Part shown: positions 2,714-54,059 of the stretch, one piece after another
Layout: each line of letters begins with the position of its first letter
How positions within the stretch are numbered: position 1 is the first letter of the stretch
Source of the DNA: a virus
IMG/VR virus record: IMGVR_UViG_3300008108_007904
Direction: 5' to 3' (one strand)
Length of the DNA stretch: 64,000 nt
The notes under the pieces: model-generated
The model's database searches: none
Seen by the model: the letters and a program-made list of their open reading frames with translations, nothing else
What the model was told of the DNA's origin: nothing
Made by a program: the position numbers and the translations under genes

Positions 2714-2741
2714 TTGATTCAATATTATTTACGTCTATACT
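2714..2741 (+). promoter_or_regulatory. sigma70-like early promoter of the dpdA-like operon
   Basis: TTGATT-N16-TATACT, then 6 nt to ATG at 2748. Confidence 0.7.
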
Positions 2742-2747
2742 CGTGAT

Positions 2748-3566
2748 ATGCTAATGAAAGTTTCACATGAATCTCCTATCTCCATACTCAAAGAATCACA
2801 GACATATAATGATTTCGATTATGCGTTAGTACATTTATTCGAAAAATTTCCTGAATATAGACATTATTTTAAAGCAGCGCGCGAGCATTATAACCGCGAA
2901 GTATTGCTTGATAATTCTATCTTCGAACTCGGTACGGCATTTGATAAAGATCTTTTCTATAAAGAAGTGATGTGGTTACAGCCAAACATGTTTATTATAC
3001 CTGATGTTCTCGAAGATACAAACGGTACAATACATAGCTTTATTGAGTGGCAAAAAAACGGGATGATTAATAATATTAAAAACAGTTTTAATACAAAAAC
3101 AATTGGTGCTATTCAGGGCAAGACATGGAGCGATATCAAGACGTGTTACAAATTTATGTCTGACAGTGCAGATATGATTGCTATTAGCTTTGATTTTAGC
3201 TACTACCATATTACAGGTGAAGGCAATAATCAACTTGAGCGCTTCTGTTCTGGTCGCCAGCGCTTAATTAGACAACTTATTGACGATGGTGTCTGGAATT
3301 GGAATAAACCGCATCACTTACTTGGATGTTCTCTTGCTAAAGAGTTTAGATATTATGTTGATAATAATATTCATAATATCGTAAGCTGCGATACAAGTAA
3401 TCCTGTTGTTGCAGCAATTCGTGGGTTGAAGTATGATGCTGATTACGGTCTGGCTACTAAGCCGCATACAAAACTGGCAGACCTTATCGAATATGAATTT
3501 AATGAAGATGGTCTTGCATTACTTGAATATAATACTAATATGTTTAAGAGAATTATACGCCGATGA
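2748..3566 (+). CDS. dpdA: TGT-fold guanine transglycosylase-like protein (divergent DpdA family)
   Basis: TIM-barrel TGT-like motifs LLDNS, IIPDV, AIQG, HHLLG, SCDTS. First gene of an operon ending in queF. Confidence 0.7.
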   Translation: MLMKVSHESPISILKESQTYNDFDYALVHLFEKFPEYRHYFKAAREHYNREVLLDNSIFELGTAFDKDLFYKEVMWLQPNMFIIPDVLEDTNGTIHSFIEWQKNGMINNIKNSFNTKTIGAIQGKTWSDIKTCYKFMSDSADMIAISFDFSYYHITGEGNNQLERFCSGRQRLIRQLIDDGVWNWNKPHHLLGCSLAKEFRYYVDNNIHNIVSCDTSNPVVAAIRGLKYDADYGLATKPHTKLADLIEYEFNEDGLALLEYNTNMFKRIIRR

Positions 3567-4108
3567 AACGAGATTGGATAACATTTTTTTCACAAACTGG
3601 TTCCGAGATTACAAATATATCCGCATTTTATAAAACAGTACCTAAGTGTATAGCGCATAATAAAAAACACTTTGAACGTGTTAATCCATGGATAAAGCAG
3701 CAAATGGGTAAACAGACAACGCGATTTGTTCAGCTTCCACCCAAGCCAACAGTTGACGATTACCTCGCAGTTCTTAAAGAATACAAAAATCCTTTAATCA
3801 CCTTACATGGTTATTTACGTATTATCCCAAAAGAGATATGTGAGAAATATGAGATATACAACTTACATCCAGGTCTTATTACAAAGTACCCTGACTTAAA
3901 AGGTAAGGATCCACAAGATCGTGCGTTTCAAAAGCAGTACGAGACCGCGGGATGTGTTATTCATAGAGTTATTCCTGAAGTTGACAGCGGGGAGATAATG
4001 CTCGAACATGAAATTAATATCAGGTATAAAGACCTTGATAGGGTGTATGCTGAGCTACATGCTCTCGCATCAGCAATGTGGATAAAATTTTTTAAACAAT
4101 ATGTGTGA
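3563..4108 (+). CDS. PurN-like formyltransferase (DpdN-like, putative preQ1 formyltransferase)
   Basis: NLHPG...GCVIHRV...VDSGEI formyltransferase signature. ATGA overlap with the dpdA-like gene. Confidence 0.8.
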   Translation: MKRDWITFFSQTGSEITNISAFYKTVPKCIAHNKKHFERVNPWIKQQMGKQTTRFVQLPPKPTVDDYLAVLKEYKNPLITLHGYLRIIPKEICEKYEIYNLHPGLITKYPDLKGKDPQDRAFQKQYETAGCVIHRVIPEVDSGEIMLEHEINIRYKDLDRVYAELHALASAMWIKFFKQYV

Positions 4109-4448
4109 CGACGAAGTTATTAATATAATAGAAACAAAGTATCCTGAAACATGTCAGGAGTTTAAACGTATACAAAAGTATCAGTATCTTACATTCTGTA
4201 AAAAACAACTTGATTATGGCCCTGGTAATATTTCACTTGGTAGCACGCTTGAGACTTTCGAAGAAAGAAAAGCATCCATATCTGCTATTGTCGTCCGGTT
4301 AAATGATAAGCTTCAACGTCTTATTAATATTGTATTGCGCAGAGGATTGAGTGAGACAGCCAACGAATCCGTTCTTGATACTTTTCTCGATACATCTGTA
4401 TATTGTATTATTGCTGAAATTGTCAATAATAAAAAGTGGGCAAAATAG
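4101..4448 (+). CDS. Nucleotide-modification-associated MazG-like protein (DUF1599/Nmad1-like)
   Basis: KKQLDYG...VRLNDKLQRL...ESVLDTFLD..VY pattern. Confidence 0.7.
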   Translation: MCDDEVINIIETKYPETCQEFKRIQKYQYLTFCKKQLDYGPGNISLGSTLETFEERKASISAIVVRLNDKLQRLINIVLRRGLSETANESVLDTFLDTSVYCIIAEIVNNKKWAK

Positions 4449-4450
4449 GT

Positions 4451-4478
4451 TTGACATTCCTATTCTTTCATATACTAT
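4451..4478 (+). promoter_or_regulatory. sigma70-like early promoter
   Basis: TTGACA-N16-TACTAT, then 6 nt to ATG at 4485. Confidence 0.75.
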
Positions 4479-4484
4479 CGTTGT

Positions 4485-5039
4485 ATGATTATATCGTTTA
4501 CAGGGGCGCAGAGTACTGGTAAAACTACTTTACTTACAAAGTGTAAAGAATTATATCCTGATTATGAATTTGTAGATGAGGTCACAAGGCTCGTAAAGCG
4601 GGAATATAATGTTGATATTAACGAAGGTGGTACTGATATAACGCAGTTGTTGATTATTAATCAACATATTCAGAATGCATTTAGACATATACCAGAAAAC
4701 AAGAAAGGTGTTATTATGGATAGATGTATCGTCGATGGGTTAGTTTATACAACGTATCTCGCTGTTGAAGATAAGGTTTCACGGTGGGTTGCTGAATATG
4801 CACGTAATGTATTCAATTTACTCATAAACCGTGTTGATAAGATATTCTATACATGGCCTGGTGATGTACCTTTAGTTGATGATGGTGAGCGTAGTGCAAA
4901 TAACGAATTTCGTGATAAAATTATTACAACATTTGATCTTCTTTTTGAGACTTACAAGGATACTATGAAAGATAAGTTAATTATCTTAAAGGGTACAGTT
5001 GATGAGAGATTAAATTTAATTAAAGAAACTTTATGCTAA
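4485..5039 (+). CDS. P-loop nucleotide kinase (AAA_28/thymidylate kinase-like)
   Basis: GAQSTGKTT Walker A, IMDRCIVDGLVY, DDGER motifs. Confidence 0.8.
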   Translation: MIISFTGAQSTGKTTLLTKCKELYPDYEFVDEVTRLVKREYNVDINEGGTDITQLLIINQHIQNAFRHIPENKKGVIMDRCIVDGLVYTTYLAVEDKVSRWVAEYARNVFNLLINRVDKIFYTWPGDVPLVDDGERSANNEFRDKIITTFDLLFETYKDTMKDKLIILKGTVDERLNLIKETLC

Positions 5040-5935
5040 CAGAACTAGACAACACAAACATATCAGTACACTTAGGTAAGAGTAGTGAATATAAATCCAC
5101 ATATGATCCTTCTCTTCTCGTAAGAGAGCCACGCCAATCAAATCGTAAGCATCTCAATATCGATGATGATAATCTCCCTTTTACGGGATATGATATCTGG
5201 AACGCATATGAGTTTTCATGCTTATGCGAGAACGGTACGCCTCTTACAGGTATTGCAAAAGTGGTATATCCTGCTTCAAATAAATATATTGTTGAGTCGA
5301 AGTCTATTAAACTATATTTTAATTCTTTTAATATGCAAAAATATTCCGGTAATATTGATGATATTATGCTTACTGTTACCGGTATTGTAGAAAACGATCT
5401 CTCGACGTTACTTGAGACTGAAGTACAGGCCCATATCTTTCTCTGTAAGGATGTTGATGCCGCAAATACACCATTTGGTCAAGATTATCTCACGATCGAG
5501 AATACCGTCGATACATCTATGCTCAAGTGTTCTGTATATAAAGAGTCACCCTGGATTCTCAAGGGTACTAAAACAGAAGCAATTTATGAAGTAAAGTATC
5601 ACTCTAGTCTTCTTAAGAGTAACTGCAGAGTCACATCACAACCCGATTGGGGCGACGTATATATCTACTATAAAGGTGAGTATGATATCTGTAAAGAGTC
5701 ATTATTGAAGTATATTGTTTCGTTTAGAGATGAATGCCATTTTCATGAAGAGATTTGTGAGACAATTTATAAAAGAATTTGGGATCTCTTCTCACCACTT
5801 GAGCTGTGTGTAACATGCTTATATGTCAGAAGAGGTGGTATTGATATTAACCCCACACGTGCAAGTCATCCAGGGTTGATAGATAAAGTGCTGATTGATT
5901 CATCGGCTCAATTTACTAAGACACTCAGGCAATAG
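5033..5935 (+). CDS. queF: NADPH-dependent 7-cyano-7-deazaguanine reductase, bimodular QueF
   Basis: LGK..Y...YDPSLL, DIWNAYE, VESKSIKLYFNS, LLKSNCRVTSQPDWG, FHEEICE, RRGGIDINP. Confidence 0.95.
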   Translation: MLTELDNTNISVHLGKSSEYKSTYDPSLLVREPRQSNRKHLNIDDDNLPFTGYDIWNAYEFSCLCENGTPLTGIAKVVYPASNKYIVESKSIKLYFNSFNMQKYSGNIDDIMLTVTGIVENDLSTLLETEVQAHIFLCKDVDAANTPFGQDYLTIENTVDTSMLKCSVYKESPWILKGTKTEAIYEVKYHSSLLKSNCRVTSQPDWGDVYIYYKGEYDICKESLLKYIVSFRDECHFHEEICETIYKRIWDLFSPLELCVTCLYVRRGGIDINPTRASHPGLIDKVLIDSSAQFTKTLRQ

Positions 5936-5951
5936 TAAGCTTTTAAAAAGC

Positions 5952-5991
5952 AAAAAAAAAAGAGAAGCATTTCTGCTTCTCTTTTTTTTTT
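5952..5991. terminator. Bidirectional intrinsic terminator between convergent queF and gp23
   Basis: A-tract, AGAGAAGCA-tttc-TGCTTCTCT, T-tract. Confidence 0.9.
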
Positions 5992-6005
5992 GAACTGCGT
6001 AATTC

Positions 6006-7490: not shown

Positions 7491-7599
7491 ATTATTTTGT
7501 TTCACTTTCTATTTCATGTGACTATGTCTAATATCAGACTCGTATCTCTTTACAGAGATATATAGACATTTCTATTCAGGTATTAACCTCATCAAAAAA

Positions 7600-19317: not shown

Positions 19318-19674
19318 TCATGATTTTAATAAATCAATATAGTTTTTTATTTCCCGTACAGAAAGCTCCTTGTTTTTCGCGAGCAATAAAAAATTTGCAT
19401 CGTCTTCTTCTGTCTTTTTTTTCTTTATATATTCAATTTTCTTTTGTGTTACTTTAGGAAAAATGACACTCAAAAATTTATAACACTCTGCTTTATTGCT
19501 AAAGACTTGTGTATATTTGTTTGCGATATCGCAAGCTGAGATAGTACTCTTACCGTACATACTCAGCCACCTATTAATTAGGTATGGTGAAAACTGCTTC
19601 TCATCATCAACTGTAGAGAAGCAGTTTTCTTTTTTAGTAAAAAGAATATTTGAAATATAATCAAATATAGTCAC
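19318..19674 (-). CDS. gp62: Clamp loader small subunit
   Basis: IFDYISNILFTK, FSPYLINRWLS. Confidence 0.75.
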   Translation of the reverse strand: MTIFDYISNILFTKKENCFSTVDDEKQFSPYLINRWLSMYGKSTISACDIANKYTQVFSNKAECYKFLSVIFPKVTQKKIEYIKKKKTEEDDANFLLLAKNKELSVREIKNYIDLLKS

Positions 19675-20258
19675 GATATAACTTTCGTAGTCGCGATAAA
19701 AATATCTTCATTCATCTTGTAAAATAACTCAATTACATCTTTCATAAAACTCTCAGCATTACTATCATCGAGATTAGTAGAATATGCAAACGCAGGAGCC
19801 TTCTTACCTGCAGTTATATTAATACCCGTATGGCCGAGCGCTACATTATTTTTAGAGTATGTAATACTTACACTGCATTTACCCTTCATCTGTGTTACGC
19901 CACCTTGAGCATGCTCTTTATGTACAATTAAATCATCACCATCTACTTCGATAGGAGCTTTAATATATTTAAAGCTTAAAATATTTGCTATCTGTGTATT
20001 GAACAATCTCTGCCAAGAAACAGCACCAAACGGATCAAGATTCGGTATCTCCCATAAAAAATTTATAGCATCCTGACTATAGATAAAATCATTATTGAGT
20101 ACATCTTCAGTATCAATCATACCTTCAGCTTCTACGTGCATCGGTGCCCTAAAAGCAATGATATTGCCAATTGGAAGAGTTCTTTCTCTAAAATATTTGT
20201 AAGCAAATCTATTATGAAGGATCTTACCGTCGTAATTTTTAATATCAGTTATAATCAT
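19671..20258 (-). CDS. DUF366-like protein (biotin/lipoate-ligase fold)
   Basis: YDG..LH..FAY, IIAFRAPM, MID.ED, QRL, DGDDL, K.SVSI, HTGINI. Confidence 0.7.
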   Translation of the reverse strand: MIITDIKNYDGKILHNRFAYKYFRERTLPIGNIIAFRAPMHVEAEGMIDTEDVLNNDFIYSQDAINFLWEIPNLDPFGAVSWQRLFNTQIANILSFKYIKAPIEVDGDDLIVHKEHAQGGVTQMKGKCSVSITYSKNNVALGHTGINITAGKKAPAFAYSTNLDDSNAESFMKDVIELFYKMNEDIFIATTKVIS

Positions 20259-31000: not shown

Positions 31001-31672
31001 TTAGTATAAAATGTTTTGATAGTATAGAACTGGTACACTGTCTTTTACTCTTGTATAATTTTTAATATTAATGTCTTGTAGCTTTTTTATATATGACATG
31101 TCTACAAGATCAGGATATACGTACCAATCTTCAAATGGACCTGATTTCAAATTACCAACATCAGAGAATACTCTTAAATAGCCTGCGTCAGCAAATATTT
31201 TTCTTGACCGTGCTCTCGTAATGACATATTGCCAATCTTGTCGATATATATCATGCTCAAACGTTATAGTGGTAAATTTGTATGTGCTCATAACATGAGT
31301 CTTAAGAGATAAAAGTGTGTTTATTGTCGAATTATCGCTCACTTCAAGATCTATCTGCAAATAATCAATAATTGGAGGTGCTTTAGAATTGCTAAGCAGT
31401 GTGCTATAATCTATTGTTGATGCATCATGTATAATATGTACACTCTCTTGTCTATCTTTCTTATATAAAGGTAAAAAATTAATATTAGAGTCTATCATGA
31501 TACCTTTCCATCCATACTTTTTCTCGAGTAAAAAGGTGTTACTTCTTTTTTTAGGGTGATTAGAGCCTAACTCTAAAAAATAGCCGTTGTGTTTTTTTGC
31601 AAGAACACTGACGATAAATTTATCTTGCTCTAGCTGACCATAAAAAATATTATCTATTTCTTGCTTTATCAA
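31001..31672 (-). CDS. FkbM-like methyltransferase
   Basis: GQLEQD, FLELGS, SNT..LE...GWKG, IDYLQID.E, FEH, EDWY. Confidence 0.8.
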   Translation of the reverse strand: MIKQEIDNIFYGQLEQDKFIVSVLAKKHNGYFLELGSNHPKKRSNTFLLEKKYGWKGIMIDSNINFLPLYKKDRQESVHIIHDASTIDYSTLLSNSKAPPIIDYLQIDLEVSDNSTINTLLSLKTHVMSTYKFTTITFEHDIYRQDWQYVITRARSRKIFADAGYLRVFSDVGNLKSGPFEDWYVYPDLVDMSYIKKLQDINIKNYTRVKDSVPVLYYQNILY

Positions 31673-32396
31673 GAATTATATCTTTCATTATTTTTTGCTT
31701 ATGATCTTCTTCTTTAGTTATATCCTTCTGTACCTTGAGCAGTTGCTCCATCATGTCAATATTTTCTGTACTAAAGATAGAATTATCTTCAACAAGATTA
31801 CCGGTATCGTTAATATAGAGCTTTACCATCTCTATACGCTCTGCGGGAGAGCCAAATATCTCAATAATCGGTGGCCTGTCGTCATCAGGGAAAAATGGCG
31901 ATTTACCGGTATGGTATAATCCGTGTGATATAACTTTAAATATATTGTCAATCTCCGCAATATATGCTGGATCTGTCTCTCTATTATCTTTATGTATTAT
32001 CGGTACAGGAGATACATTCGTAATAGGTAGGAAGAATATAATATCAAGATAATTCATACTCTCCTTGACTAGTGGTATACACTCGCGTATAAAGTCATCA
32101 TCGATATCTGAAGTGTTCTTTGCATTACTCCAGAGTGAATAAACAATATTATCTAAACAACATCTATCAAATATAATATTATCACTTTTTGAGGTAGATT
32201 TAATATCAGTTAAAATTAACTTCAATATTTCAAGTTGTGATTCTTTAGTTACCTCTTTATTGAGTTTAATATTATTTTCTTTTATATACGCTCTATATGA
32301 CTCTGTCGACCGCTTATACATCGGCCACCTGTTAATAATATCGTTGACAAGAGTGGATTTTCCTTGACACGCTGATCCTGATATGGCAATTCTCAT
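31650..32396 (-). CDS. P-loop NTPase/nucleotide kinase (AAA_28-like)
   Basis: GSACQGKST, FDRCCLDNIVY. Confidence 0.8.
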   Translation of the reverse strand: MRIAISGSACQGKSTLVNDIINRWPMYKRSTESYRAYIKENNIKLNKEVTKESQLEILKLILTDIKSTSKSDNIIFDRCCLDNIVYSLWSNAKNTSDIDDDFIRECIPLVKESMNYLDIIFFLPITNVSPVPIIHKDNRETDPAYIAEIDNIFKVISHGLYHTGKSPFFPDDDRPPIIEIFGSPAERIEMVKLYINDTGNLVEDNSIFSTENIDMMEQLLKVQKDITKEEDHKQKIMKDIILDKARNR

Positions 32397-32457: not shown

Positions 32458-33645
32458 ATGCTTTTCGCTAAAGACCACATTTCCCCGGAAAATAAACATA
32501 CAACTATTTTCTCACATCTAAACTACAGCCGTATGTGTGCTAATTTTATAGCAAATACGCACAGCGTAACACAAGATAATTTATGTGATACGAGTAAATG
32601 TATTTATGTTTATAATTTGCGTAATTCATGGCATGCAACTTGCGAGCATGTAAATGATTTGACAGATATTATTGATATATCTATAATTAACCGCGCAATT
32701 AACGGCAAAGCTCTTATTATATTAAGTCAGGCACATGAATTTCATAGTGTTACTAACAAAGGTATTGAAAAAATATATACTCTGCTTGACAAATATAAAA
32801 TACCTCTAAAGCAATTAATTTTATTCTCTAACAACTTTGAACGCGAGCCTATCTTATATAAAGTTAATGGTATAAAGGTATGTGAGTTTAATTATTTTGA
32901 ACTAGTAGTAAAACATTCTATAGAGCAAATCGATATGCACGCCTCGCACAAGCGTCGTATTACTAATATACACACAGAGTCAGACATAAAAAGATTTCTA
33001 TGTCTCAACAGACAACCAAAAGACTCACGATATGAAACCGTTTTTAGTTTGTGGAAACATAATATACTTCCAAACACACTCTGTAGTTTACAACTGTTCA
33101 ATGAAAATGACACGTTGTATACCTTACCGCATACAGAAAAACTCTTTAAGCAACCAGAGTTTCAAAAATTTACAAAAGTTTTACCTCTTAGTGCAGATAA
33201 TGTTGAATTAAAATTTAATCAGTGGGATACTTATAACAGCAATTTTATCGAAAACGTAGGTATTAATATTATTACTGAAACACTTGTTCATCACTGCTTT
33301 GCTAACAGTGTTTTTTTTACAGAAAAAATATATAAATGTATGCTTTACTCTATGCCGTTCATTACTGTAGCACAGCCTAATTTTTTAACGTTTTTAAAGC
33401 GTTGCGGCTATCGCACTTTTTCATCTTTTTGGGATGAAAGTTATGATGTTGTTATAGACTGGTCGGATAGATTACGATATCTAATTAATACACTTAAATA
33501 CTTAAACGAATTAAGTGTAACAGAATTTAATAACATTCTTAGGAGAGCGATACCTATTACAACACACAACTATATACACATGATGCAATCTAATAGTGAT
33601 AGTCTCATATTTAAACTGCTTTACGATGCTTATAGTGAGCTTTAA
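32458..33645 (+). CDS. Glycosyltransferase-like protein of phage glycan islands
   Basis: FLCLNR, IITET, FFTEKIYK, PFI, GYRTF..FWDESYD. Confidence 0.6.
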   Translation: MLFAKDHISPENKHTTIFSHLNYSRMCANFIANTHSVTQDNLCDTSKCIYVYNLRNSWHATCEHVNDLTDIIDISIINRAINGKALIILSQAHEFHSVTNKGIEKIYTLLDKYKIPLKQLILFSNNFEREPILYKVNGIKVCEFNYFELVVKHSIEQIDMHASHKRRITNIHTESDIKRFLCLNRQPKDSRYETVFSLWKHNILPNTLCSLQLFNENDTLYTLPHTEKLFKQPEFQKFTKVLPLSADNVELKFNQWDTYNSNFIENVGINIITETLVHHCFANSVFFTEKIYKCMLYSMPFITVAQPNFLTFLKRCGYRTFSSFWDESYDVVIDWSDRLRYLINTLKYLNELSVTEFNNILRRAIPITTHNYIHMMQSNSDSLIFKLLYDAYSEL

Positions 33646-34400
33646 ACCTTTAAAGCTTTGTCCCAGATAACCAATTGTAAGCGTGGGCTGAATTTTACGC
33701 CCATACACTTTGCATATTCTGCAACTGCAGCAGCTCTTTGAGAGTGCTCTTCACGTGAACCGCAGCAAGGCATAAACCATATACGCTTTGTTGGTATATT
33801 TATGCCTTCGTCATCACGTACATACTTGTTCCATATTTCCTCTATATCACTATCAGTAGTTATTACGAACTTAAATCCAGAGTTATTCAATACATGCCAT
33901 TTAAGAACTTCAGGCTTATACGTCTTCTCCACTGGATCACCGTTCGTCGACAGCTTAGGTGAAGTTGTGAATGTAGCTCTATAATGTGCTACCCATTCGT
34001 TATCGGGCATAATAGTAGCGTTTGTTTCAAAGTCAATTCTCGGTAAGAATCCATATCGCTCAATAAAGCAGTTTATAAACTTTAAAAGCTGCTTTTGCTG
34101 TACAAGCGGTTCACCACCTGTAATTTTTAAAATACTACCGTCTTGAAGATAGTTAATGTGAAAGCTTTTTTCCATCATTGTAAAAATCTCTTGAAAAGTC
34201 ATTTTATTCTTTACAGACCAAGAGACGTAAGAATCACAACCATGCGGAGAGTCATCTGATATAAACTTATTACATGTAAGATTACACATTGACAGTCTCA
34301 TAAAGACAGACGGTGTTCCGATATATTCACCTTCACCCTCAATTGTGTAAAATATTTTATCATCACTTAAGAAAAGCGTCTCTTCATCAATGTTTATCAT
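33642..34400 (-). CDS. queE: 7-carboxy-7-deazaguanine synthase (radical SAM)
   Basis: FYTIEGEG...G.PSVF.R...CNLTC, ITGGEP, ETN, SPKL, KFVI, RLQ. Confidence 0.92.
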   Translation of the reverse strand: MINIDEETLFLSDDKIFYTIEGEGEYIGTPSVFMRLSMCNLTCNKFISDDSPHGCDSYVSWSVKNKMTFQEIFTMMEKSFHINYLQDGSILKITGGEPLVQQKQLLKFINCFIERYGFLPRIDFETNATIMPDNEWVAHYRATFTTSPKLSTNGDPVEKTYKPEVLKWHVLNNSGFKFVITTDSDIEEIWNKYVRDDEGINIPTKRIWFMPCCGSREEHSQRAAAVAEYAKCMGVKFSPRLQLVIWDKALKV

Positions 34401-35244: not shown

Positions 35245-35632
35245 GTTCTTCAAGAGCTTTAAGTACATTATTGTTTGCTGCAGTCAAATCATCAGTTGTT
35301 TGATCTTTGAGATCAACTGATCCAGAGCGTAATGTCTTTACACCATCATTGTCGCTTAGACCTATTTGTTGAGCAATAATATTAAGTGTATCTTTTAAAT
35401 TATTCTCTATGTGCTGAAAATGAGGATCACGCTCAAAAGGTGGTAAAATATTGCCTGAAGAAACGAGACCTGTTGTATCGATACTTGGCTTACCCTTTAT
35501 TTGTCTATCGTAAATATTAGATAGATCATCTTGTGTTTGAAGAAAAGGTAATTGTGTTTCTTTTTGTTTTTGCGGTACAATATAATCAGATATATCTCCG
35601 CCGTATATCTGATGTCTATGCTCAGGTGACAT
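35219..35632 (-). CDS. Hypothetical protein
   Basis: ATG at 35632 overlaps the queD stop (TGATG). Confidence 0.55.
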   Translation of the reverse strand: MSPEHRHQIYGGDISDYIVPQKQKETQLPFLQTQDDLSNIYDRQIKGKPSIDTTGLVSSGNILPPFERDPHFQHIENNLKDTLNIIAQQIGLSDNDGVKTLRSGSVDLKDQTTDDLTAANNNVLKALEELKNLGAAS

Positions 35633-36255
35633 CAGACACCCCAACTTGTACCTGCAAAAGGGTTTGACCACCCGGAGCTAACCTGATTACCTACTCGTGC
35701 AGGTATCGGCTCATTTTGATGCTGCGGATTTACTTGTGTCGTAATCGACTGTTCTTGTGATTGTGTAGTATCCTTCACTTCTTTCTGCACTATTCTATCA
35801 TTGTAGCAGGTATCGTTATTAACGAATAAGGCTGAATTTTTCTCATGCTCCCAAACTTCGACTTTGTTGACCCAACATCTATTATTTGTTTGTGATCGAA
35901 TAATTCTATTAGCTGTTTTGAAGCACCATTCTGCAGTTCTTTCAATACCTACACCGTCAGGCATGACCCTTAAATCACAAGCACCGAGCTCATGTAGTTG
36001 CTTAAAATGACTCAGTAAAGGATCATCAGCAGCTACACAGAAGGTATGATCAAATTGTTTCTCAAGAGCTACCTTTAATTCCTTCAAACCACCAAAGTCG
36101 ACAACCCAGTTCTTATTATCCAACTCATTACAACAAAACCAGAATTTAGCAACTAGTCTATAACCATGAATAAACTTACAGTGACTGTGATCTGCTCTCC
36201 ATTGACGAAATGCGCAGCTACCTAAATCAATTACTTTTGTGCTCTCAAAACTCAT
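35632..36255 (-). CDS. queD: 6-carboxytetrahydropterin synthase
   Basis: HCKFIHGY, WVVDFG.LK, FDH, VWEHEKN. Start at ATG 36255 behind a TTGAAC-N16-TATAAT promoter. Confidence 0.92.
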   Translation of the reverse strand: MSFESTKVIDLGSCAFRQWRADHSHCKFIHGYRLVAKFWFCCNELDNKNWVVDFGGLKELKVALEKQFDHTFCVAADDPLLSHFKQLHELGACDLRVMPDGVGIERTAEWCFKTANRIIRSQTNNRCWVNKVEVWEHEKNSALFVNNDTCYNDRIVQKEVKDTTQSQEQSITTQVNPQHQNEPIPARVGNQVSSGWSNPFAGTSWGV

Positions 36256-36361
36256 AAAAGGTATTATAACATCAATTCCACCGCGTTCAACTATTTTATT
36301 AACTTTTTCTAAATTCTTATATCTATACCTAAGAATATTATAACCAACGTTGGTCAGGAAA

Positions 36362-36604
36362 TCAACTATTTTTTTGCAAATTTTCAATACTTTCAAGAAT
36401 ATTAATAACGTATTGATTAAAAGATTCGTTGGTTTTTTTAGACTTACCAGCGGTTTGTAGAGCTATTGCAACTGCTTGTTTTTGCGCAGCTTTCTTAGAT
36501 TTTGGATGCGATGTACCGATTTTACCGGTTTTTTTATACTTGCTCATTTCTTTCTTTATATTAGAAGAAATAGCCTTACTTGATGTTCCCTTTTTTAATG
36601 GCAT
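36362..36604 (-). CDS. Small basic protein (KQAVAIAL motif, DUF6496-like)
   Basis: MPLKKGTSSKAISSNI...KQAVAIAL. Confidence 0.65.
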   Translation of the reverse strand: MPLKKGTSSKAISSNIKKEMSKYKKTGKIGTSHPKSKKAAQKQAVAIALQTAGKSKKTNESFNQYVINILESIENLQKNS

Positions 36605-37650: not shown

Positions 37651-38304
37651 ATGGAAGAATATACGAAAGAAGTACGCATTAAATACGCAAATGGTAATCA
37701 TCCTCATACTGACGAGGAAAAGAGAACAATTATAGAGAGAGCCGCAAAGGCATATGAGAGCTATTTAGATGCTCTCGGCTTTGATTGGAGAAATGATCCG
37801 AATAGTACTAACACACCTCTTCGTGTTGCAAAAGCTTTTGTAAATGACCTCGCTGCAGGTTGCTATAATGAACCACCGAAAGTTACTTCGTTTCCGAGTA
37901 ATGGTTATGATGGCATTGTATTTCAAGGCGGCATTCCTGTAAAGAGCATGTGTAGTCATCATCACCTCGCGTTTACAGGTGTAGCTCATGTGGCATATAT
38001 ACCATCATTAGATGGTCGTGTTATCGGTCTCTCAAAATTAAACAGAATTGTTGAATTTTACGCGCGTCGTCCGCAAATTCAAGAAGGTCTCACTATACAG
38101 ATTCACGATGCAATTAACGAAGTATGCGAGAAAAATCGCGGTGTTGCTGTTGTAGTTAGCGCTACACATACATGTGCATGTAATCGCGGCGTTAAACACG
38201 ACGGGTGTGAGATGAAGACAAGCAAGCTTAGTGGTGATTTTATGGCAGATGCAGCAACACGGGCTGAATTTTATACATTTGTAGCAAACATGAAGAAGCT
38301 ATAA
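37651..38304 (+). CDS. folE: GTP cyclohydrolase I
   Basis: TPLRVAKA, SMCSHH, GLSKLNR, RPQIQE, HTC...RG. Confidence 0.95.
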   Translation: MEEYTKEVRIKYANGNHPHTDEEKRTIIERAAKAYESYLDALGFDWRNDPNSTNTPLRVAKAFVNDLAAGCYNEPPKVTSFPSNGYDGIVFQGGIPVKSMCSHHHLAFTGVAHVAYIPSLDGRVIGLSKLNRIVEFYARRPQIQEGLTIQIHDAINEVCEKNRGVAVVVSATHTCACNRGVKHDGCEMKTSKLSGDFMADAATRAEFYTFVANMKKL

Positions 38305-47641: not shown

Positions 47642-50233
47642 ATGTTTAGAAATTGTGCTTATCTGCCAAAGGACCAGGCAATGCGTCTCTATACGTGGGA
47701 CGAGAACGGTCAGCGAATCATAATTGATTCAACGTATGAGCCATACGTTTATTTAGAGACAACTCACAATGAAGATTGTATGAGTATCTTTAATACAAAG
47801 CTAAAAAAGAGGCGGTTTCGCAATCAATCAGACAGAGCTCAATATTTTAAAGACAATAACATTGTACGTGTCTTTGAGAATTTTGGTGTGCAGCAGCAAT
47901 TTTTAATTGATTACTTCGGAGACCGTAATGAAGAGCCGGATTTTGCTAAGCATCCATTGAAAGTATTCTTCTTAGATATAGAGACATATAGTCTAGATAG
48001 TTTTCCTAATATTGACGAAGCAAATCACGCAATTAATGTCATAACGATATATGATACATTGCTTAAAAAATTTAAAACGTTTGGTACAAAGCAGTATACA
48101 GGCGGCGATGAGAATGTCGAATATGTGTATTGTAAGACAGAGAAAGAACTTCTTAGTAAATTTATTGATTTTTTTGTTAGTGATTATCCCGATATTCTCT
48201 CAGGATGGAACAGCGAATTCTTTGATGTACCCTATATTATTAATAGAATAGTAAGATTGTTCGGGGAGAGTGAAGCAAACAGGCTATCACCGATAGGTCG
48301 TGTGAGATCAAGAATGTTTCTTGGTAAATTCGGTAAGGAGCAGAAGAGATGGTATATAGAGGGAATATCGTGCGTCGACTATCTACAAATTTATAAAAGG
48401 TTTTGCCCTGTATTACGAGAGCGATATAAACTTGGGTACATTGGTGAAGTAGAATTAGGGGAGAGCAAGATTGATTACGGTGATATAGATCTTGCAACAC
48501 TTGCGGATACAGATTGGAATTTATTTGTAAAATACAACATTCAAGACGTTAACCTTCTCGTAGAGCTTGAGAAGAAATTACAATACATACAACTGCTGCG
48601 TATGATTGCGTACGCTGGTCTTACTACGTTTGAAGGTGCTCTTGGCTCGTTAAGCGTCATTACCGGTCTTTGTGCGATTCGTGCACGGTCACGTAATCAA
48701 CGCATACCAACCTTTAACAAAGGTAAAGTTAATGAGGACGGCGAGCAGAACGCAGGTGCATATGTCGGTGAACCGCAGCAAGGATTTCAAGAACATATAG
48801 TGTCGTTTGATGCTAACAGTCTGTATCCAAACGTAATGATCACACTTAATCTATCACCAGAAACAAAGATAGGTACAATAACAGATATAACTGATGATGA
48901 GATTACAATAAAGCATGTTAACGGATCACACTTTACACTTACAAAAGAAAAGTTTTCTTCATTTGTGAAACAGGAAGAAATAGCCATATCAAAAGCTAAA
49001 GTTTTATTCTCACAAAAGACAAAAGGTATTATACCTGAAGCAGTAGATCACTATTACAAGAAACGCGTCGAGATTAAAAAGCTACTTACTGCAGCTAAGC
49101 GTGAGCAATTAAACTGTGAGAAAGATACTAAAGAATATAATGAAATGCAAAAGAAGGTTGAGAACCTCAATATTACGCAGCATACAATCAAGATTCTAAT
49201 TAATACGATTTACGGGTATTTTGGTAACAAGCATAGTCCGCTCGGTGATGATGAGTTAGCAGAATCTATTACCTTAACTGGCCAAGCAACCATTAAGCAA
49301 TCAAATCAATTATTGATGGATTACATTTGTGAACAAACTGGTCTGAAGCCTGAAGAATTAGAGAAAGACACCCCCATCATCTATAACGATACGGATAGTT
49401 CGTATATCTCTATTAAACATCTCATTAAGCATAAAAATATAAAAATGTTTAATAAAGACGGTAAAATAACAAAGGAGTATTATGATGCAGTTAGGAATAT
49501 TGAAGATTACTTGAACAAAGGTATTCAGGAATGGGGGTGTAAATCTCTCGGCTCAAAAGACTGTAGATTAAATTTTAAGAGAGAACGCATAGCAGATACA
49601 GGTTTATTTTTACAGAAGAAAAGATATGTATTGCATGTTTTAGACGAGGAAGGTATACCGTGCAGTAAATTTAAATATACCGGCGTAGAGGTGGTGAGAA
49701 CGACGATGCCTGCCACTATTAAAGAGCATGTTAAGAAGATTATCGAGACAATGCTAACAACAAAATCAAGAGCTGAAACTGATAAAGTATTCATTGAGAC
49801 ATACGATATATTCAAGACATTGAGCGTCGATGATATCTCTTCAGTAATGGGCATAAAGAATTACGAGAAGTATGCATCGCAGTGTGATCAGTTTAAAACT
49901 GTGAAAGGAATGCCTATTCACGTGAAAGCGGCATACTACTATAATATGTTCGTTAAAAAACTTAATATCGAGAGAAAATATGAAACGATATCATCCGGTG
50001 ATCATATTCGTTATTTTTATGTTAGAAAACCTAATAGGTACGGTCTGTCGGTAATAGGATACAAGTACGAATATCCTAAGGAATTTGAAGGTATTTTCGA
50101 GCCAGATTACGAAATGATTTTTGAGAAGATTATACACTCAGTAATACAGCGTTTTTACGAAGCAGTAAAGTGGAAGCTTAAGACACCGAGTCAACAAGGT
50201 CAAACAGATTTATTTGATTTATTAGGTGTATAG
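47642..50233 (+). CDS. gp43: Family B DNA polymerase
   Basis: DIET, GWNS..FD, YN..D, SFDANSLYP, K..IN..YG, YNDTDS, KKRY. Confidence 0.97.
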   Translation: MFRNCAYLPKDQAMRLYTWDENGQRIIIDSTYEPYVYLETTHNEDCMSIFNTKLKKRRFRNQSDRAQYFKDNNIVRVFENFGVQQQFLIDYFGDRNEEPDFAKHPLKVFFLDIETYSLDSFPNIDEANHAINVITIYDTLLKKFKTFGTKQYTGGDENVEYVYCKTEKELLSKFIDFFVSDYPDILSGWNSEFFDVPYIINRIVRLFGESEANRLSPIGRVRSRMFLGKFGKEQKRWYIEGISCVDYLQIYKRFCPVLRERYKLGYIGEVELGESKIDYGDIDLATLADTDWNLFVKYNIQDVNLLVELEKKLQYIQLLRMIAYAGLTTFEGALGSLSVITGLCAIRARSRNQRIPTFNKGKVNEDGEQNAGAYVGEPQQGFQEHIVSFDANSLYPNVMITLNLSPETKIGTITDITDDEITIKHVNGSHFTLTKEKFSSFVKQEEIAISKAKVLFSQKTKGIIPEAVDHYYKKRVEIKKLLTAAKREQLNCEKDTKEYNEMQKKVENLNITQHTIKILINTIYGYFGNKHSPLGDDELAESITLTGQATIKQSNQLLMDYICEQTGLKPEELEKDTPIIYNDTDSSYISIKHLIKHKNIKMFNKDGKITKEYYDAVRNIEDYLNKGIQEWGCKSLGSKDCRLNFKRERIADTGLFLQKKRYVLHVLDEEGIPCSKFKYTGVEVVRTTMPATIKEHVKKIIETMLTTKSRAETDKVFIETYDIFKTLSVDDISSVMGIKNYEKYASQCDQFKTVKGMPIHVKAAYYYNMFVKKLNIERKYETISSGDHIRYFYVRKPNRYGLSVIGYKYEYPKEFEGIFEPDYEMIFEKIIHSVIQRFYEAVKWKLKTPSQQGQTDLFDLLGV

Positions 50234-50731: not shown

Positions 50732-51868
50732 ATGGAAAAAGAAATCGATAATATATTCAAGAAGCTAGATTCACTTAACAGCGAGGCAACATTCCTAGAC
50801 GAGAATGCCCTATCAAATGTCGATACTTGGTATGACACAGGATGTTATGCACTGAATGCTATCCTTGGCGGTAGTTGTAGAAAAGGCGGTGTACCAAAGG
50901 GTAGAATTGTGGGATTCTCCGGTGAATCAATGACTGGAAAAACATTTATTGTGAATAAAATTTTAGCTAATGCTCAGAAGCAAGGCGTATATCCGGTCAT
51001 TTTTGACACTGAATTTGCCATCGATGAAGGTTCAACAAAAGGCGTCGGTCTCGACCCTTCGAAAACGAAATATGTACCTGTTTATACGGTAGATCAGTGC
51101 AGGAATCAGCTATCTGCATTCTTGGATAGTGTTATTGAAAATAAGCAAGAAGGTAAGTTTATTATTAGTATTGACAGTCTTGGCAATCTTTCCTCACAGA
51201 AAGAAATCGATGACATTGCAAAGGATAAATCTGCAGCAGATATGGGGTTGAGAGCGAAATCTTTGAAGAGTTTACTACGCACTCTTACCTATAAGGCAGG
51301 GCGTGCTGGCGTGACGATTCTGTTTACCAACCATACGTATGCTGATCCTGGTGCAATGTATCCATCGCTCATAAAAAACCAAGCAGGTGGGTCTGGACCG
51401 GTGTATATGGCGAGTATTCTAGTACAGCTCGCTAAACGCAACGAGAAGGAAGGTGAGGGTGATGCAGGTGCAGTTAACACAACAAAACTTGCTGAAGCGA
51501 ACAAATACTCAGGAACTACACTACGAGCATTGACTGTTAAAAATCGCTTTGTTCCACCGTTTCTTGAAGCAGAAATGTACCTCTCATTCAAGTCGGGTCT
51601 TAACAAGTATAGCGGGTTACTACAGATGGCAGCAGCACGAGGTATCGTTGAACAAACTGGTTCGACATATGTTGTAGGTGTTGATAGTGGTAAGTATAAA
51701 AAAGGTGAAAAACTGGGATATGCTAAGAATTTCGTGAAGGATATCTCTTTCTTTGAAGACTTCTTGATACCAGAACTCGACAAGAGACTTACTGAAGATT
51801 ACAAATACAACAGTAATGACGGTGAAACACAACCGAAGATTGAAGAAGAATTTGTAGACAATGAATAA
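50732..51868 (+). CDS. uvsX: RecA-like recombinase
   Basis: DTGCYALN, GESMTGKT, FDTE, IDSLGNL, DMGLRAK, NHTY, KNRF. Confidence 0.95.
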   Translation: MEKEIDNIFKKLDSLNSEATFLDENALSNVDTWYDTGCYALNAILGGSCRKGGVPKGRIVGFSGESMTGKTFIVNKILANAQKQGVYPVIFDTEFAIDEGSTKGVGLDPSKTKYVPVYTVDQCRNQLSAFLDSVIENKQEGKFIISIDSLGNLSSQKEIDDIAKDKSAADMGLRAKSLKSLLRTLTYKAGRAGVTILFTNHTYADPGAMYPSLIKNQAGGSGPVYMASILVQLAKRNEKEGEGDAGAVNTTKLAEANKYSGTTLRALTVKNRFVPPFLEAEMYLSFKSGLNKYSGLLQMAAARGIVEQTGSTYVVGVDSGKYKKGEKLGYAKNFVKDISFFEDFLIPELDKRLTEDYKYNSNDGETQPKIEEEFVDNE

Positions 51869-52571
51869 GGTAGTTTTATCGTATTCTGGTGGTATGGACT
51901 CAACTGTCCTACTATATAAAGCACTACATGACTTTGACGTTGTACACACAGTTACCTTTAACTACGGTCAAAGGCACCACAAAGAGATTGAAATAGTAAA
52001 GAGTCAAATAGAACGTCATTCTAGCAAGAAATTAACGAATGTTATACTTGATTTACCGTTCTTTCAGCAATTCAAAGGTTCATCATTACTCGATAATACC
52101 ATTGACGTAGCCAAGGCAAAAGACGTTATGGGTGACCCACAAACAGTAAACTATGTACCGTTCAGAAACACTATATTTTTGTCAATTTTGGCAGGGTATG
52201 CGGAAAGTGTAGGTGCTAAGACAGTATGGTACGGAGCAGCGCAAGCTGATAGTGTCGCGGGCTTCTACGACGGGAGCATTGAGTTTCTCGATCAAATCAA
52301 CGATATTACAAAACTCAATAGGAGACACGTAATATCCATAGAAGCACCACTTATCGACCTATCTAAGAAAGAAATAATCAAACTCGGTCAACAGTATGAT
52401 GTTGACTATACTGACACATGGACATGTTATGAAGGTAAGGACGTGGCGTGTGGTGAATGCACGGCATGCGCACTACGTTTGAAAGGGTTTGTTGATGCAG
52501 GCATACCAGATCCTGTTCCGTACTCAAAAGTTATACCATGGGATAAGCTTATTAAGCTCCCTGCCAGATAG
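51861..52571 (+). CDS. queC: 7-cyano-7-deazaguanine synthase
   Basis: SGGMDST, YGQRH..E, VPFRN, TWTCY, CGECTAC. Confidence 0.95.
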   Translation: MNKVVLSYSGGMDSTVLLYKALHDFDVVHTVTFNYGQRHHKEIEIVKSQIERHSSKKLTNVILDLPFFQQFKGSSLLDNTIDVAKAKDVMGDPQTVNYVPFRNTIFLSILAGYAESVGAKTVWYGAAQADSVAGFYDGSIEFLDQINDITKLNRRHVISIEAPLIDLSKKEIIKLGQQYDVDYTDTWTCYEGKDVACGECTACALRLKGFVDAGIPDPVPYSKVIPWDKLIKLPAR

Positions 52572-54005: not shown

Positions 54006-54059
54006 GGCTTGAAATATTTATTCTCTCGTATATATTTATTACAGGGAGGCACGAAACTT

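What the first reader, a model, noticed from the sequence alone, without database searches (positions are those of the whole stretch)
2748..5935. 7-deazaguanine operon that looks built to work on nucleotides, not only on finished DNA
Seen: five tightly packed co-oriented genes encoding a TGT/DpdA-like barrel, a PurN-like formyltransferase, a MazG-like (DUF1599/Nmad1) protein, a P-loop nucleotide kinase and QueF. Known: FolE-QueD-QueE-QueC-QueF make preQ1, and a DpdA plus a PurN paralogue (DpdN) has been linked to formylated dPreQ1 in phage DNA, with insertion generally assumed to be post-replicative. Inference: a kinase plus a pyrophosphatase-fold protein is the usual toolkit of pre-replicative base substitution (make the modified dNTP, remove the canonical one). 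This phage may therefore exchange the base on dGMP/dGTP and let gp43 incorporate it, which would allow full G replacement.
Basis: partly seen in the sequence, partly recalled or inferred. Interest (0 to 1): 0.85.

Follow-up and report, generated by a model that had tools for sequence, protein, structure and literature searches.

The report
Phage deazaguanine cassette with linked kinase
An uncultured T4-like phage carries the known gene set for replacing guanine in its DNA by a formylated 7-deazaguanine, and the base-swapping enzyme is almost always encoded next to a small nucleotide-type kinase, which suggests the swap may happen on free nucleotides rather than on finished DNA as the literature currently assumes.

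Summary
The five co-oriented, overlapping genes are real. They are DpdA3 (a TGT-fold barrel), a DpdN-type PurN paralogue, a small DUF1599-like helical protein, an AAA_28 kinase and QueF. FolE, QueD, QueE, QueC and a gp43-type polymerase lie elsewhere in the window. The gene order matches the published fdPreQ1 cluster of Flavobacterium phage immuto, so the cassette is a new member of a known kind.

What the papers I could search do not mention is the kinase. In non-redundant DpdA3 loci it sits on the same strand within 8 kb in 84 of 86 cases. It is adjacent in all five distant lineages looked up, and also in CP220 and immuto. It is absent from 9g, CAjan and Rosebush, which modify only part of their G.

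MazG, PRA-PH, dUTPase or DCD genes recur inside these clusters. DpdN keeps PurN's phosphate-binding loop. DpdA3 is a minimal, acidic barrel without a conserved zinc site.

I rate it about 0.5, against about 0.35 for exchange on finished DNA. The "MazG-like" label for the 115-aa protein was not confirmed. No substrate was tested here.

The parts
2748..3566 (+). DpdA3-type guanine transglycosylase (TGT-fold TIM barrel, 272 aa; likely true start 2754)
   Evidence: 48% and 44% identity to immuto gp206 and CP220 gp056. AF2 model pLDDT 96.7. TGT fold: Z 17.9, 234 residues aligned, rmsd 3.0. Invariant D55, E60, D86, R170, H190, G193, D215, P219.
3563..4108 (+). DpdN-type formyltransferase (PurN paralogue, 181 aa)
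   Evidence: PF00551 1.6e-15. The profile's best PDB matches are GAR transformylases (7e-18). N100/H102/D141 triad and an N-terminal S-x-T-G-S-E loop are conserved. 42% identity to immuto DpdN.
4101..4448 (+). 115-aa four-helix protein, DUF1599/Nmad1-like; function unknown
   Evidence: PF07659 is sub-threshold, but 11 of 13 relatives match it. Atlas feature score 0.96 and TM 0.85 to DUF1599 clusters. Present in 65 of 104 related loci.
4485..5039 (+). AAA_28 P-loop kinase of the NMP/nucleoside-kinase type (184 aa), the conserved partner of DpdA3
   Evidence: PF13521 1.2e-15. Profile hits: TMPK 2pbr 6e-6, NadR ribosylnicotinamide kinase 6gye 1e-5, dNK 8puu 4e-4. Invariant P-loop, R35, Q54, D79-R80, D133-G134-x-R136, R175. 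Synteny.
5033..5935 (+). QueF, NADPH-dependent preQ0 reductase (bimodular type, 300 aa)
   Evidence: QueF_N 9e-32 and QueF 8e-21. TIGR03138 3e-77. QueF motif and catalytic Cys present.
5951..5992 (.). Bidirectional terminator hairpin between QueF (+) and gp23 (-)
   Evidence: 19-pair stem flanked by A and T runs.
31650..32396 (-). Second AAA_28 kinase paralogue (248 aa) beside the QueE/QueD/FolE region
   Evidence: Kinase-profile E 1.6e-21. PF13521 3.7e-12. Best PDB match is deoxyguanosine kinase 2jaq, 9e-4. CP220 and the record of L017 also carry two paralogues.
33642..34400 (-). QueE-like radical SAM (CDG synthase)
   Evidence: tblastn to immuto QueE 6e-9. Fer4_12 weak hit.
35632..36396 (-). 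QueD (PTPS family)
   Evidence: PF01242 3.3e-16. 41% identity to immuto QueD.
37651..38304 (+). FolE, GTP cyclohydrolase I
   Evidence: PF01227 6.9e-48. 60% identity to immuto FolE.
51861..52571 (+). QueC (preQ0 synthase)
   Evidence: PF06508 1.1e-60.
47642..50233 (+). gp43-type family B DNA polymerase, the enzyme that would incorporate a modified dNTP
   Evidence: DNA_pol_B 1.4e-32 and exonuclease domain 3e-18.

Best explanation
This is the 7-deazaguanine DNA-modification cassette of an uncultured T4-like phage, of the DpdA3/DpdN/QueF type that gives complete G-to-fdPreQ1 replacement in Flavobacterium phage immuto.

Proposed working:
1. [quoted passage not shown]
2. DpdA3, a minimal TGT-fold barrel, swaps guanine for the deazaguanine base on a free deoxyguanosine nucleotide or nucleoside rather than on polymeric DNA (inferred).
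3. The DpdN formyltransferase formylates the aminomethyl group, probably on the 5'-phosphorylated product, which resembles PurN's substrate GAR (inferred).
4. The obligatorily linked AAA_28 kinase, and possibly its paralogue at 31650-32396, phosphorylates the modified nucleoside or nucleotide, and host enzymes finish it to the dNTP (inferred).
5. The phage polymerase incorporates it, giving full replacement (inferred).

The phosphorylation state of the DpdA3 substrate (dG, dGMP or dGTP) and the role of the DUF1599 protein are unresolved.
For: Cassette identity: same order DpdA3-DpdN-kinase-QueF as immuto. TGT fold with Z 17.9. All pathway genes are in the window.

Nucleotide-level reading:
1. 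The kinase is on the same strand within 8 kb of DpdA3 in 84 of 86 loci non-redundant at 98% identity, and in 45 of 47 at 80%.
2. It persists in loci that lack DpdN, DUF1599 and QueF, CP220 included.
3. All five distant DpdA3 (32-45% identity) that I looked up have an AAA_28 gene next to or near DpdA3, sometimes upstream and sometimes downstream. The phages have different backbones: PolIII-alpha, PolA or PolB.
4. phiST, which lacks this kinase family, has another P-loop kinase-like gene (AAA_18, 9.4e-7) directly beside DpdA3.
5. The kinase keeps small-molecule kinase motifs and matches TMPK, NadR ribosylnicotinamide kinase and dNK.
6. The partial-modification phages 9g, CAjan and Rosebush have no member of this kinase family.
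7. Nucleotide pyrophosphatase genes lie inside the clusters: PRA-PH in immuto, MazG in phiST, dUTPase plus MazG in L143, dUTPase in L140, DCD in L142.
8. DpdN aligns full-length to GAR transformylase, including the loop that corresponds to the PurN segment known to bind the GAR phosphate. DpdA3-DpdN fusions exist.
9. The DpdA3 family is acidic (median pI 5.5). It has only five conserved basic positions, no conserved Cys/His zinc cluster, and no accessory domain.
10. Literature: replacement is 100% in all three tested DpdA3 phages, and free ADG nucleoside was seen in CP220-infected cells (PMC10516641).
11. From established knowledge: known complete base replacements in phages are made at the nucleotide-pool level, and 7-deaza-dGTPs are accepted by family A and B polymerases.
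Against: - Every characterised member of the TGT/DpdA superfamily acts on a polynucleotide.
- DpdA3 keeps the same catalytic layout: D55, D86, Q123, G193 and D215 fall in motif order like TGT D102, D156, Q203, G230 and D280.
- Cui et al. 2023 conclude a post-replicative route, though by inference only, since DpdA3 could not be assayed.
- No substrate was tested here.
- One lineage (L059) has DpdA3 with no kinase within 10 kb.
- The window's own candidate dGTPase (ORF3) is not demonstrably a pyrophosphatase.
- CP220 gp055 (HD + AAA_33) could be an RNA-repair type kinase-phosphatase rather than a dGTPase.
- A type I phosphoribosyltransferase in many of these phages allows a different role for the kinase: salvage of the released guanine.
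- Synteny shows functional linkage, not the substrate.
Confidence: 0.5

Rival explanations
1. Post-replicative model, the current literature view. DpdA3 is a very efficient, sequence-independent DNA-guanine transglycosylase that swaps G for preQ1 (or fpreQ1) in polymeric phage DNA. The kinase has an auxiliary role: together with the phage phosphoribosyltransferase it recycles the released guanine (guanine to GMP to GDP to GTP) to feed FolE, or it manages nucleotide pools in general.
For: TGT fold and conserved catalytic Asp residues. All characterised relatives act on RNA or DNA (PMC10164549; PMC10516641). A type I PRTase occurs in immuto, phiST and 30 related loci, which fits a guanine-salvage loop. 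L059 has DpdA3 without the kinase.
Against: The kinase is linked to DpdA3 itself, not to the PRTase (several kb away and not universal) nor to FolE. The host already has guanylate kinase. DpdA1/2 phages, which also release guanine, lack this kinase. The model does not explain MazG, dUTPase or DCD genes inside the clusters, the PurN-type phosphate loop of DpdN, or the minimal acidic barrel without a nucleic-acid-binding module. From established knowledge, complete replacement by a post-replicative enzyme has no precedent.
Confidence: 0.35
2. ATPase-cofactor model. The P-loop protein is not a kinase of small molecules but an NTPase that DpdA3 needs to work on DNA, analogous to the ATPase DpdB required by bacterial DpdA.
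For: Bacterial DpdA is inactive without the ATPase DpdB (PMC10164549). The strict DpdA3/P-loop pairing would fit an obligate two-protein machine.
Against: DpdB is a ParB-fold protein, unrelated to AAA_28. The family keeps the substrate-side motifs of NMP/nucleoside kinases (R35, Q54, DR, DDGxR lid) and matches TMPK, NadR-RNK and dNK. It is a 184-aa acidic single domain (pI about 5.6) with no DNA-binding module.
Confidence: 0.08
3. De novo ribonucleotide route. A phosphoribosyltransferase couples the deazaguanine base to PRPP (as in toyocamycin-type pathways), the kinase and ribonucleotide reductase lead to the dNTP, and DpdA3 only proof-reads residual G in DNA.
For: PF00156 PRTase genes occur in immuto, phiST and many related loci. 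Ribonucleotide reductase is present in immuto and phiST.
Against: No PRTase was found in this 64-kb window. The PRTase is not universal and not adjacent to DpdA3, whereas DpdA3 is the universal signature gene (PMC10516641).
Confidence: 0.05

Closest known systems
[quoted passage not shown] 2023, PMC10516641)
   Same: Same genes in the same order: DpdA3, DpdN, AAA_28 kinase, QueF. Identities are 48, 42, 33 and 47%. FolE, QueD and QueE are also shared.
   Different: The window has a DUF1599 gene between DpdN and the kinase, where immuto has none. Immuto has a PRA-PH/MazG-type hydrolase two genes upstream and a PRTase. The backbone differs (T4-like PolB here, PolA in immuto). The virion DNA of this phage has not been analysed.
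Campylobacter phage CP220 / Firehammervirus dADG system (DpdA3)
   Same: DpdA3 (44% identity) is directly followed by the same kinase family. A second kinase paralogue lies elsewhere in the genome, as in the window. G replacement is 100% according to the literature.
   Different: No QueF or DpdN, and the end product is dADG. The upstream gene is an HD + AAA_33 fusion.
Bacterial DpdA/DpdB and phage DpdA1/DpdA2 DNA-guanine transglycosylases
   Same: Same superfamily and fold. The only PDB sequence hit of the DpdA3 profile is DpdA 7ui4, aligned over the HLLG and DTSxP motifs.
   Different: The sequence relation is marginal (E 0.44). DpdA3 is about 270 aa, with no conserved zinc ligands. The partner is a kinase-fold protein rather than a ParB-fold ATPase. 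Modification is partial and sequence-specific in DpdA/DpdA1/2 but complete in DpdA3 phages. The DpdA1/2 phages tested lack the kinase.
Pre-replicative replacement toolkits: T4 hmC (gp42, gp1 kinase, gp56 dCTPase) and S-2L-type dZ (PurZ, MazZ, DatZ)
   Same: The gene logic matches: a base-altering enzyme, a dedicated nucleotide kinase, and an NTP (pyro)phosphohydrolase encoded together. The outcome in both is complete replacement.
   Different: No homology between the base-altering enzymes. The activity of DpdA3 on nucleotides is unproven. The window's own hydrolase candidate is uncertain.

Membership tests
DpdA3 subfamily of TGT/DpdA transglycosylases (Cui et al. 2023) | Sequence homology to the named members (CP220, phiST CGPG_00065, immuto gp206) | tested here: met
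   48% identity to immuto and 44% to CP220. The family profile A3 hits phiST CGPG_00065 at 2.9e-23, CP220 at 1.3e-85 and immuto at 6e-112.
DpdA3 subfamily of TGT/DpdA transglycosylases (Cui et al. 2023) | TGT-type TIM-barrel fold | tested here: met
   Model pLDDT 96.7. Foldseek E 2.7e-9, TM 0.68. VIA Z 17.9, rmsd 3.0, 234 residues aligned.
DpdA3 subfamily of TGT/DpdA transglycosylases (Cui et al. 2023) | Conserved catalytic and base-pocket residues (nucleophile Asp in D-T/C-x-x-P, second Asp, Q-G, L-G) | tested here: met
   D55, D86, G193, D215 and P219 are invariant and Q123 is 87% conserved in 99 sequences. The D215 motif aligns to SIDSTTP of DpdA 7ui4. Equivalence to TGT D102/D156/Q203/G230/D280 is inferred from motif order.
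DpdA3 subfamily of TGT/DpdA transglycosylases (Cui et al. 2023) | Co-encoded with 7-deazaguanine synthesis genes | tested here: met
DpdA3 subfamily of TGT/DpdA transglycosylases (Cui et al. 2023) | Complete replacement of dG in virion DNA; exchange on DNA | not testable with these tools
   Needs LC-MS of virion DNA and enzyme assays. The paper itself could not assay DpdA3.
DpdN (dPreQ1/preQ1 formyltransferase, PurN paralogue) | Formyl_trans_N domain with the Asn/His/Asp triad, co-encoded with DpdA and FolE to QueF | tested here: met
   PF00551 1.6e-15. N100, H102 and D141 are invariant. 42% identity to immuto DpdN. Pathway genes present.
DpdN (dPreQ1/preQ1 formyltransferase, PurN paralogue) | Formylation of preQ1 or dPreQ1 | not testable with these tools
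   Activity has never been shown, even for the immuto protein.
QueF (preQ0 reductase) | QueF_N + QueF domains, QueF motif E-S-K-S-x-K-x-Y, catalytic Cys | tested here: met
   The TIGR03138 score of 259.9 is below its equivalog cut-off of 293.
NMP / nucleoside kinase fold (AAA_28; TMPK, NadR-RNK, dNK relatives) | P-loop, substrate-side Arg, D-R motif, Arg-bearing lid | tested here: met
   PF13521 1.2e-15. Invariant G7, G12-K13, R35, D79-R80, D133-G134-x-R136 and R175. PDB profile hits 2pbr, 6gye and 8puu.
NMP / nucleoside kinase fold (AAA_28; TMPK, NadR-RNK, dNK relatives) | Phosphorylates a guanine or deazaguanine nucleoside or nucleotide | not testable with these tools
   Substrate specificity cannot be read from the sequence. 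Only linkage to DpdA3 is shown.
DUF1599 / Nmad1 (PF07659) | Match to the Pfam model at its gathering score | tested here: inconclusive
   The window protein scores 14 bits against a cut-off of 25. 11 of 13 relatives match, best E 1.4e-4. Atlas feature score 0.96 and TM 0.85 to DUF1599-labelled clusters.
MazG-like all-alpha NTP pyrophosphatase (for ORF3) | Four-helix bundle related to MazG/PRA-PH/AF0060, with acidic metal-binding motifs | tested here: inconclusive
   The model is a four-helix protein. The best whole-length match is AF_0060 (2p06) at Z 7.5, rmsd 3.5, 87 residues aligned, which is within helical noise. iMazG and YpjD appear only at Foldseek E about 3. hhalign against MazG and PRA-PH gives no signal.
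Pre-replicative base-replacement toolkit (T4 hmC, S-2L dZ type) | Base-altering enzyme acts on a mononucleotide | not testable with these tools
   Indirect support only.
Pre-replicative base-replacement toolkit (T4 hmC, S-2L dZ type) | Dedicated kinase and canonical-dNTP hydrolase encoded with it | tested here: inconclusive
   A kinase candidate is present and strictly linked. Genuine MazG, PRA-PH, dUTPase or DCD genes occur in sister clusters. In this window only the uncertain DUF1599 protein is present.

The most novel reading that the evidence does not exclude
DpdA3 is the first member of the TGT superfamily that exchanges the base on a free deoxyguanosine nucleotide or nucleoside. Together with its dedicated kinase(s) and a dGTP-removing hydrolase, it forms a pre-replicative pathway that supplies 7-deaza-dGTP derivatives to the phage polymerase. 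[quoted passage not shown]
Probability: 0.5. Interest if true: 0.85.

Novelty: new member of a known kind. Interest (0 to 1): 0.7.

Why it matters
The cassette itself is a further example of the published DpdA3/DpdN system. It belongs to a very large environmental family: 3376 clusters at 90% identity and 1211 at 50%.

What is of value is the rule that emerged. The transglycosylase that gives complete G replacement is almost never encoded without a nucleotide-type kinase beside it. The main DpdA3 paper does not contain the word "kinase".

If base exchange takes place on nucleotides, three things follow:
- The accepted post-replicative picture of phage 7-deazaguanine DNA would need revising.
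- A new enzyme activity would be defined: a nucleotide transglycosylase useful for making 7-deaza-dNTPs.
- It would explain why DpdA3 could not be reconstituted in the E. coli DNA-modification assay.

The question can be tested directly with four purified proteins.

Tried and rejected
- Near-identical DNA in the phage collection: none found. No whole genome is held for the window.
- ORF1 alone against the PDB by sequence: nothing meaningful. The profile gave only DpdA 7ui4 at E 0.44.
- ORF3 as MazG. A PDB sequence profile search returned only non-significant, unrelated hits. Foldseek had no hit at E <= 0.001. The wide VIA search reached at most Z 7.5, within noise for helical proteins. hhalign against a MazG and a PRA-PH protein gave probability below 1%. 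The MazG label is therefore not adopted.
- P0221 (361 aa) as a possible DpdA3-Nmad1 fusion: hhalign probability only 12.6% and no Pfam hit, so not claimed.
- phiST as a counter-example to the kinase rule. It truly lacks the AAA_28 family, but its DpdA3 neighbour CGPG_00066 is an AAA_18 P-loop protein. hhalign to the AAA_28 profile aligns only the P-loop, and its PDB hits are not significant.
- L059's 242-aa neighbour as a divergent kinase: rejected.
- CP220 gp055 (HD + AAA_33) as a dGTPase: left open, because the architecture also fits a polynucleotide kinase-phosphatase.
- Crippen et al. 2019 (J Virol) could not be read: not held.
- Literature searches for a biochemical test of DpdA3 or a nucleotide-level route after 2023 found none.
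- No complex prediction was run, because binding of DpdA3 to the kinase would not discriminate between the models.

Full report
OBSERVATION

The window carries five + strand ORFs at 2748-3566, 3563-4108, 4101-4448, 4485-5039 and 5033-5935. Three junctions overlap by 4, 8 and 7 bases, and one gap is 36 bases. The unit lies between two - strand late genes: a gp5-like baseplate gene (3-2711, Phage_base_V) and the gp23 major capsid gene (6006-7505). It ends in a 19-pair bidirectional terminator hairpin at 5951-5992.

Pfam, NCBIfam and PHROGs identify ORF2 as a PurN-like formyltransferase, ORF4 as AAA_28 ('thymidylate kinase' phrog_2107) and ORF5 as QueF. ORF1 and ORF3 have no Pfam hit at default thresholds. 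The QueF motif and the catalytic cysteine are intact.

ORF1 IS A DpdA3

By tblastn, ORF1 matches only Flavobacterium 'immuto' phages (48% identity, annotated 'DNA guanine transglycosylase') and Campylobacter Firehammervirus phages such as CP220 (42-44%). These, with Cellulophaga phage phiST, are the members of the DpdA3 subfamily named by Cui et al. 2023. All three replace 100% of dG (PMC10516641). A 99-sequence family profile (A3) also hits phiST CGPG_00065 at 2.9e-23.

The AlphaFold model is confident (pLDDT 96.7). It superposes on tRNA-guanine transglycosylases: Foldseek E 2.7e-9, TM 0.68; VIA Z 17.9, rmsd 3.0, 234 residues aligned. The only PDB sequence match of the profile is bacterial DpdA 7ui4 (E 0.44), aligned over HLLG and the D-T-S-x-P motif.

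D55, E60, D86, R170, H190, G193, D215 and P219 are invariant. By motif order they correspond to the TGT catalytic and base-pocket residues; this mapping is an inference.

The family is large in metagenomes: 3376 clusters at 90% identity and 1211 at 50%.

THE REST OF THE PATHWAY

The window also holds QueE (33642-34400), QueD (35632-36396), FolE (37651-38304) and QueC (51861-52571). It has a gp43-type PolB (47642-50233) and other T4-like replication genes.

The gene content therefore equals that of phage immuto, whose DNA carries fdPreQ1 in place of G. The local gene order DpdA3-DpdN-kinase-QueF is the same. On identity alone, this is a new member of a known system.

THE KINASE LINKAGE

I compared 137 related loci: IMG/VR contigs, plus immuto and CP220.

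- After removing redundancy at 98% DpdA3 identity, 86 loci have at least 4.5 kb downstream of DpdA3. Of these, 81 carry the AAA_28 kinase on the same strand within 5 kb and 84 within 8 kb.
- At 80% identity the numbers are 43 and 45 of 47 (raw counts).
- The kinase stays next to DpdA3 in loci that lack DpdN, DUF1599 and QueF (L048-type loci and CP220).
- Five distant DpdA3 representatives (32-45% identity), looked up in their contigs, all have an AAA_28 gene next to or near DpdA3. It lies upstream in two (L140, L142) and downstream in three. The phages have different replication modules, for example a split PolIII-alpha in L140.
- Within 10 kb of DpdA3, no locus had a second kinase copy.

There are two exceptions.

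- phiST has no member of this kinase family anywhere. However, the gene directly beside its DpdA3 (CGPG_00066) is a different P-loop protein (AAA_18 9.4e-7).
- L059 has the arrangement gp23, radical SAM, DpdA3, a 242-aa unknown, gp5-like, with no kinase nearby.

As a control, the partially modified DpdA1/2 phages 9g, CAjan and Rosebush have no member of this kinase family. nt-1 has only a 20-bit hit.

The main DpdA3 paper does not contain the word 'kinase'.

WHAT KIND OF KINASE

The family alignment (A1) has these invariant features: a P-loop, R35, N46, T53-Q54, D79-R80, Y88, P125, D133-G134-x-R136 and R175. These are the hallmarks of NMP and nucleoside kinases.

The profile matches thymidylate kinase (2pbr, 5.9e-6), the ribosylnicotinamide kinase domain of NadR (6gye, 1.1e-5, sharing the P...DDGxR lid) and deoxynucleoside kinase (8puu, 3.8e-4).

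A second paralogue lies at 31650-32396, next to the Que genes. Its best PDB match is deoxyguanosine kinase (9e-4). CP220 and a window-like 131-kb contig also carry two paralogues.

Whether the substrate is a nucleoside or a monophosphate cannot be read from the sequence.

PHOSPHOHYDROLASES

The window's ORF3 is a confident four-helix protein (pLDDT 89.8). It belongs, at sub-threshold level, to DUF1599/Nmad1. Its relation to MazG is unproven:

- The only whole-length structural match is AF_0060 (2p06), at Z 7.5, rmsd 3.5 and 87 residues aligned. This is not above helical noise.
- Profile comparison with MazG and PRA-PH proteins gave nothing.

Sister clusters, however, contain clear nucleotide pyrophosphatase genes close to DpdA3:

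- a PRA-PH family protein in immuto (gp208, 3.1e-10);
- MazG in phiST;
- dUTPase plus MazG immediately upstream in L143;
- dUTPase in L140;
- DCD immediately downstream in L142.

CP220 has an HD + AAA_33 fusion upstream. Its role is ambiguous.

DpdN

The formyltransferase family (A4) keeps the PurN triad (N100, H102, D141). It also keeps an N-terminal S-x-T-G-S-E loop that aligns with the SGTGSN loop of GAR transformylases. From established knowledge of PurN, that loop holds the 5'-phosphate of GAR. This fits a 5'-phosphorylated substrate such as dPreQ1-MP, but the link is an inference.

Two metagenomic clusters encode DpdA3-DpdN fusion proteins.

DpdA3 AS A MINIMAL BARREL

The family is acidic: median pI 5.5, median net charge -8. 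Only five positions carry a conserved basic residue. There is no conserved Cys/His zinc cluster and no accessory domain. This is weak evidence, but it is not what one expects of an enzyme that must process every G of a large dsDNA genome.

INTERPRETATION

Shown here: the cassette is a DpdA3/DpdN/QueF system, and DpdA3 is functionally linked to a small-molecule-type kinase across divergent phages.

Inferred: the link exists because the DpdA3 product is a nucleoside or nucleotide that must be phosphorylated. On this view modification is pre-replicative and the polymerase incorporates the modified dNTP.

Supporting context:
- Replacement is 100% in DpdA3 phages, against 30% or less in other DpdA subfamilies.
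- Free ADG nucleoside was reported in CP220-infected cells.
- A 'modified dGTP plus polymerase' route was proposed earlier for Campylobacter phages (PMC6884629).
- From general knowledge, complete base replacements in phages are made at the pool level, and 7-deaza-dGTPs are good polymerase substrates.

Against:
- All characterised TGT/DpdA enzymes act on polynucleotides.
- Cui et al. infer a post-replicative route.
- The field still states this route as of December 2025 (PMC12783734).
- Nothing here measures a substrate.

A serious alternative role for the kinase is recycling of the released guanine, together with the type I phosphoribosyltransferase found in immuto, phiST and 30 related loci. 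An ATPase-cofactor role, by analogy with DpdB, is less likely given the kinase motifs.

I put the nucleotide-level model at about 0.5, the DNA-level model at about 0.35, and the rest at about 0.15.

VERDICT

- Observation: confirmed, apart from the MazG label.
- Interpretation: partly supported.
- Novelty: the cassette is a new member of a known kind.
- Main new result: the DpdA3-kinase rule, which makes the pre- versus post-replicative question directly testable.

Noticed in passing
window 31650-32396 (-): A second AAA_28 kinase paralogue (248 aa) lies next to the QueE/QueD/FolE region. Its best PDB match is deoxyguanosine kinase. CP220 and a related 131-kb contig also carry two paralogues, which hints at two successive phosphorylation steps.
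   Followed up: partly
L142:1149-2408 (protein P0136): A DpdA3 is fused to a C-terminal GNAT-like domain (Acetyltransf_1, E 0.01). It is flanked by AAA_28, a DCD-type dCTP deaminase/dUTPase and a Vut_1/YhhQ-type transporter. This may be an acetylated preQ1 derivative made from an imported base.
   Followed up: partly
proteins P0125 and P0184: Single polypeptides join DpdA3 (residues 1-266) to the DpdN formyltransferase. Assembly or frameshift artefacts were not excluded.
   Followed up: partly
L059:8869-11555: A T4-like contig has DpdA3 in the same genomic slot (between gp23 and the gp5-like gene). It is paired with a 346-aa radical SAM protein and a 242-aa unknown instead of the kinase, DpdN and QueF. 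This may be a different deazaguanine chemistry.
   Followed up: partly
L001:5843-6238, L061:28218-28646, L017:2035-2517 and 27 other loci: Small type I phosphoribosyltransferase genes (PF00156) recur in DpdA3 phages. They are candidates for salvage of the released guanine or for making a deazaguanine ribonucleotide. None was found in this window.
   Followed up: partly
window 19671-20258 (-): A DUF366 family protein (PF04017, 4.7e-24) sits within the late gene block.
   Followed up: partly
window 54009-55429 (+): A 245-aa protein with a weak class II glutamine amidotransferase match (GATase_6, 1.1e-4) is followed by a glycosyltransferase-like gene, about 1.5 kb downstream of QueC. Any relation to deazaguanine chemistry is unknown.
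   Followed up: no
L143:8001-9761 (protein P0164): A 586-aa protein carries DpdA3 at its C-terminus and an unassigned 317-residue N-terminal part. It is preceded by dUTPase and MazG genes and followed by a CxxCxxCC-domain protein, AAA_28 and QueF.
   Followed up: no
window 2714-2754: A sigma-70-like promoter match (TTGATT-16-TATACT) ends only 6 bases before the annotated ATG at 2748. Homologues start at the second ATG (2754), so the transcript may have a very short leader or none.
   Followed up: no
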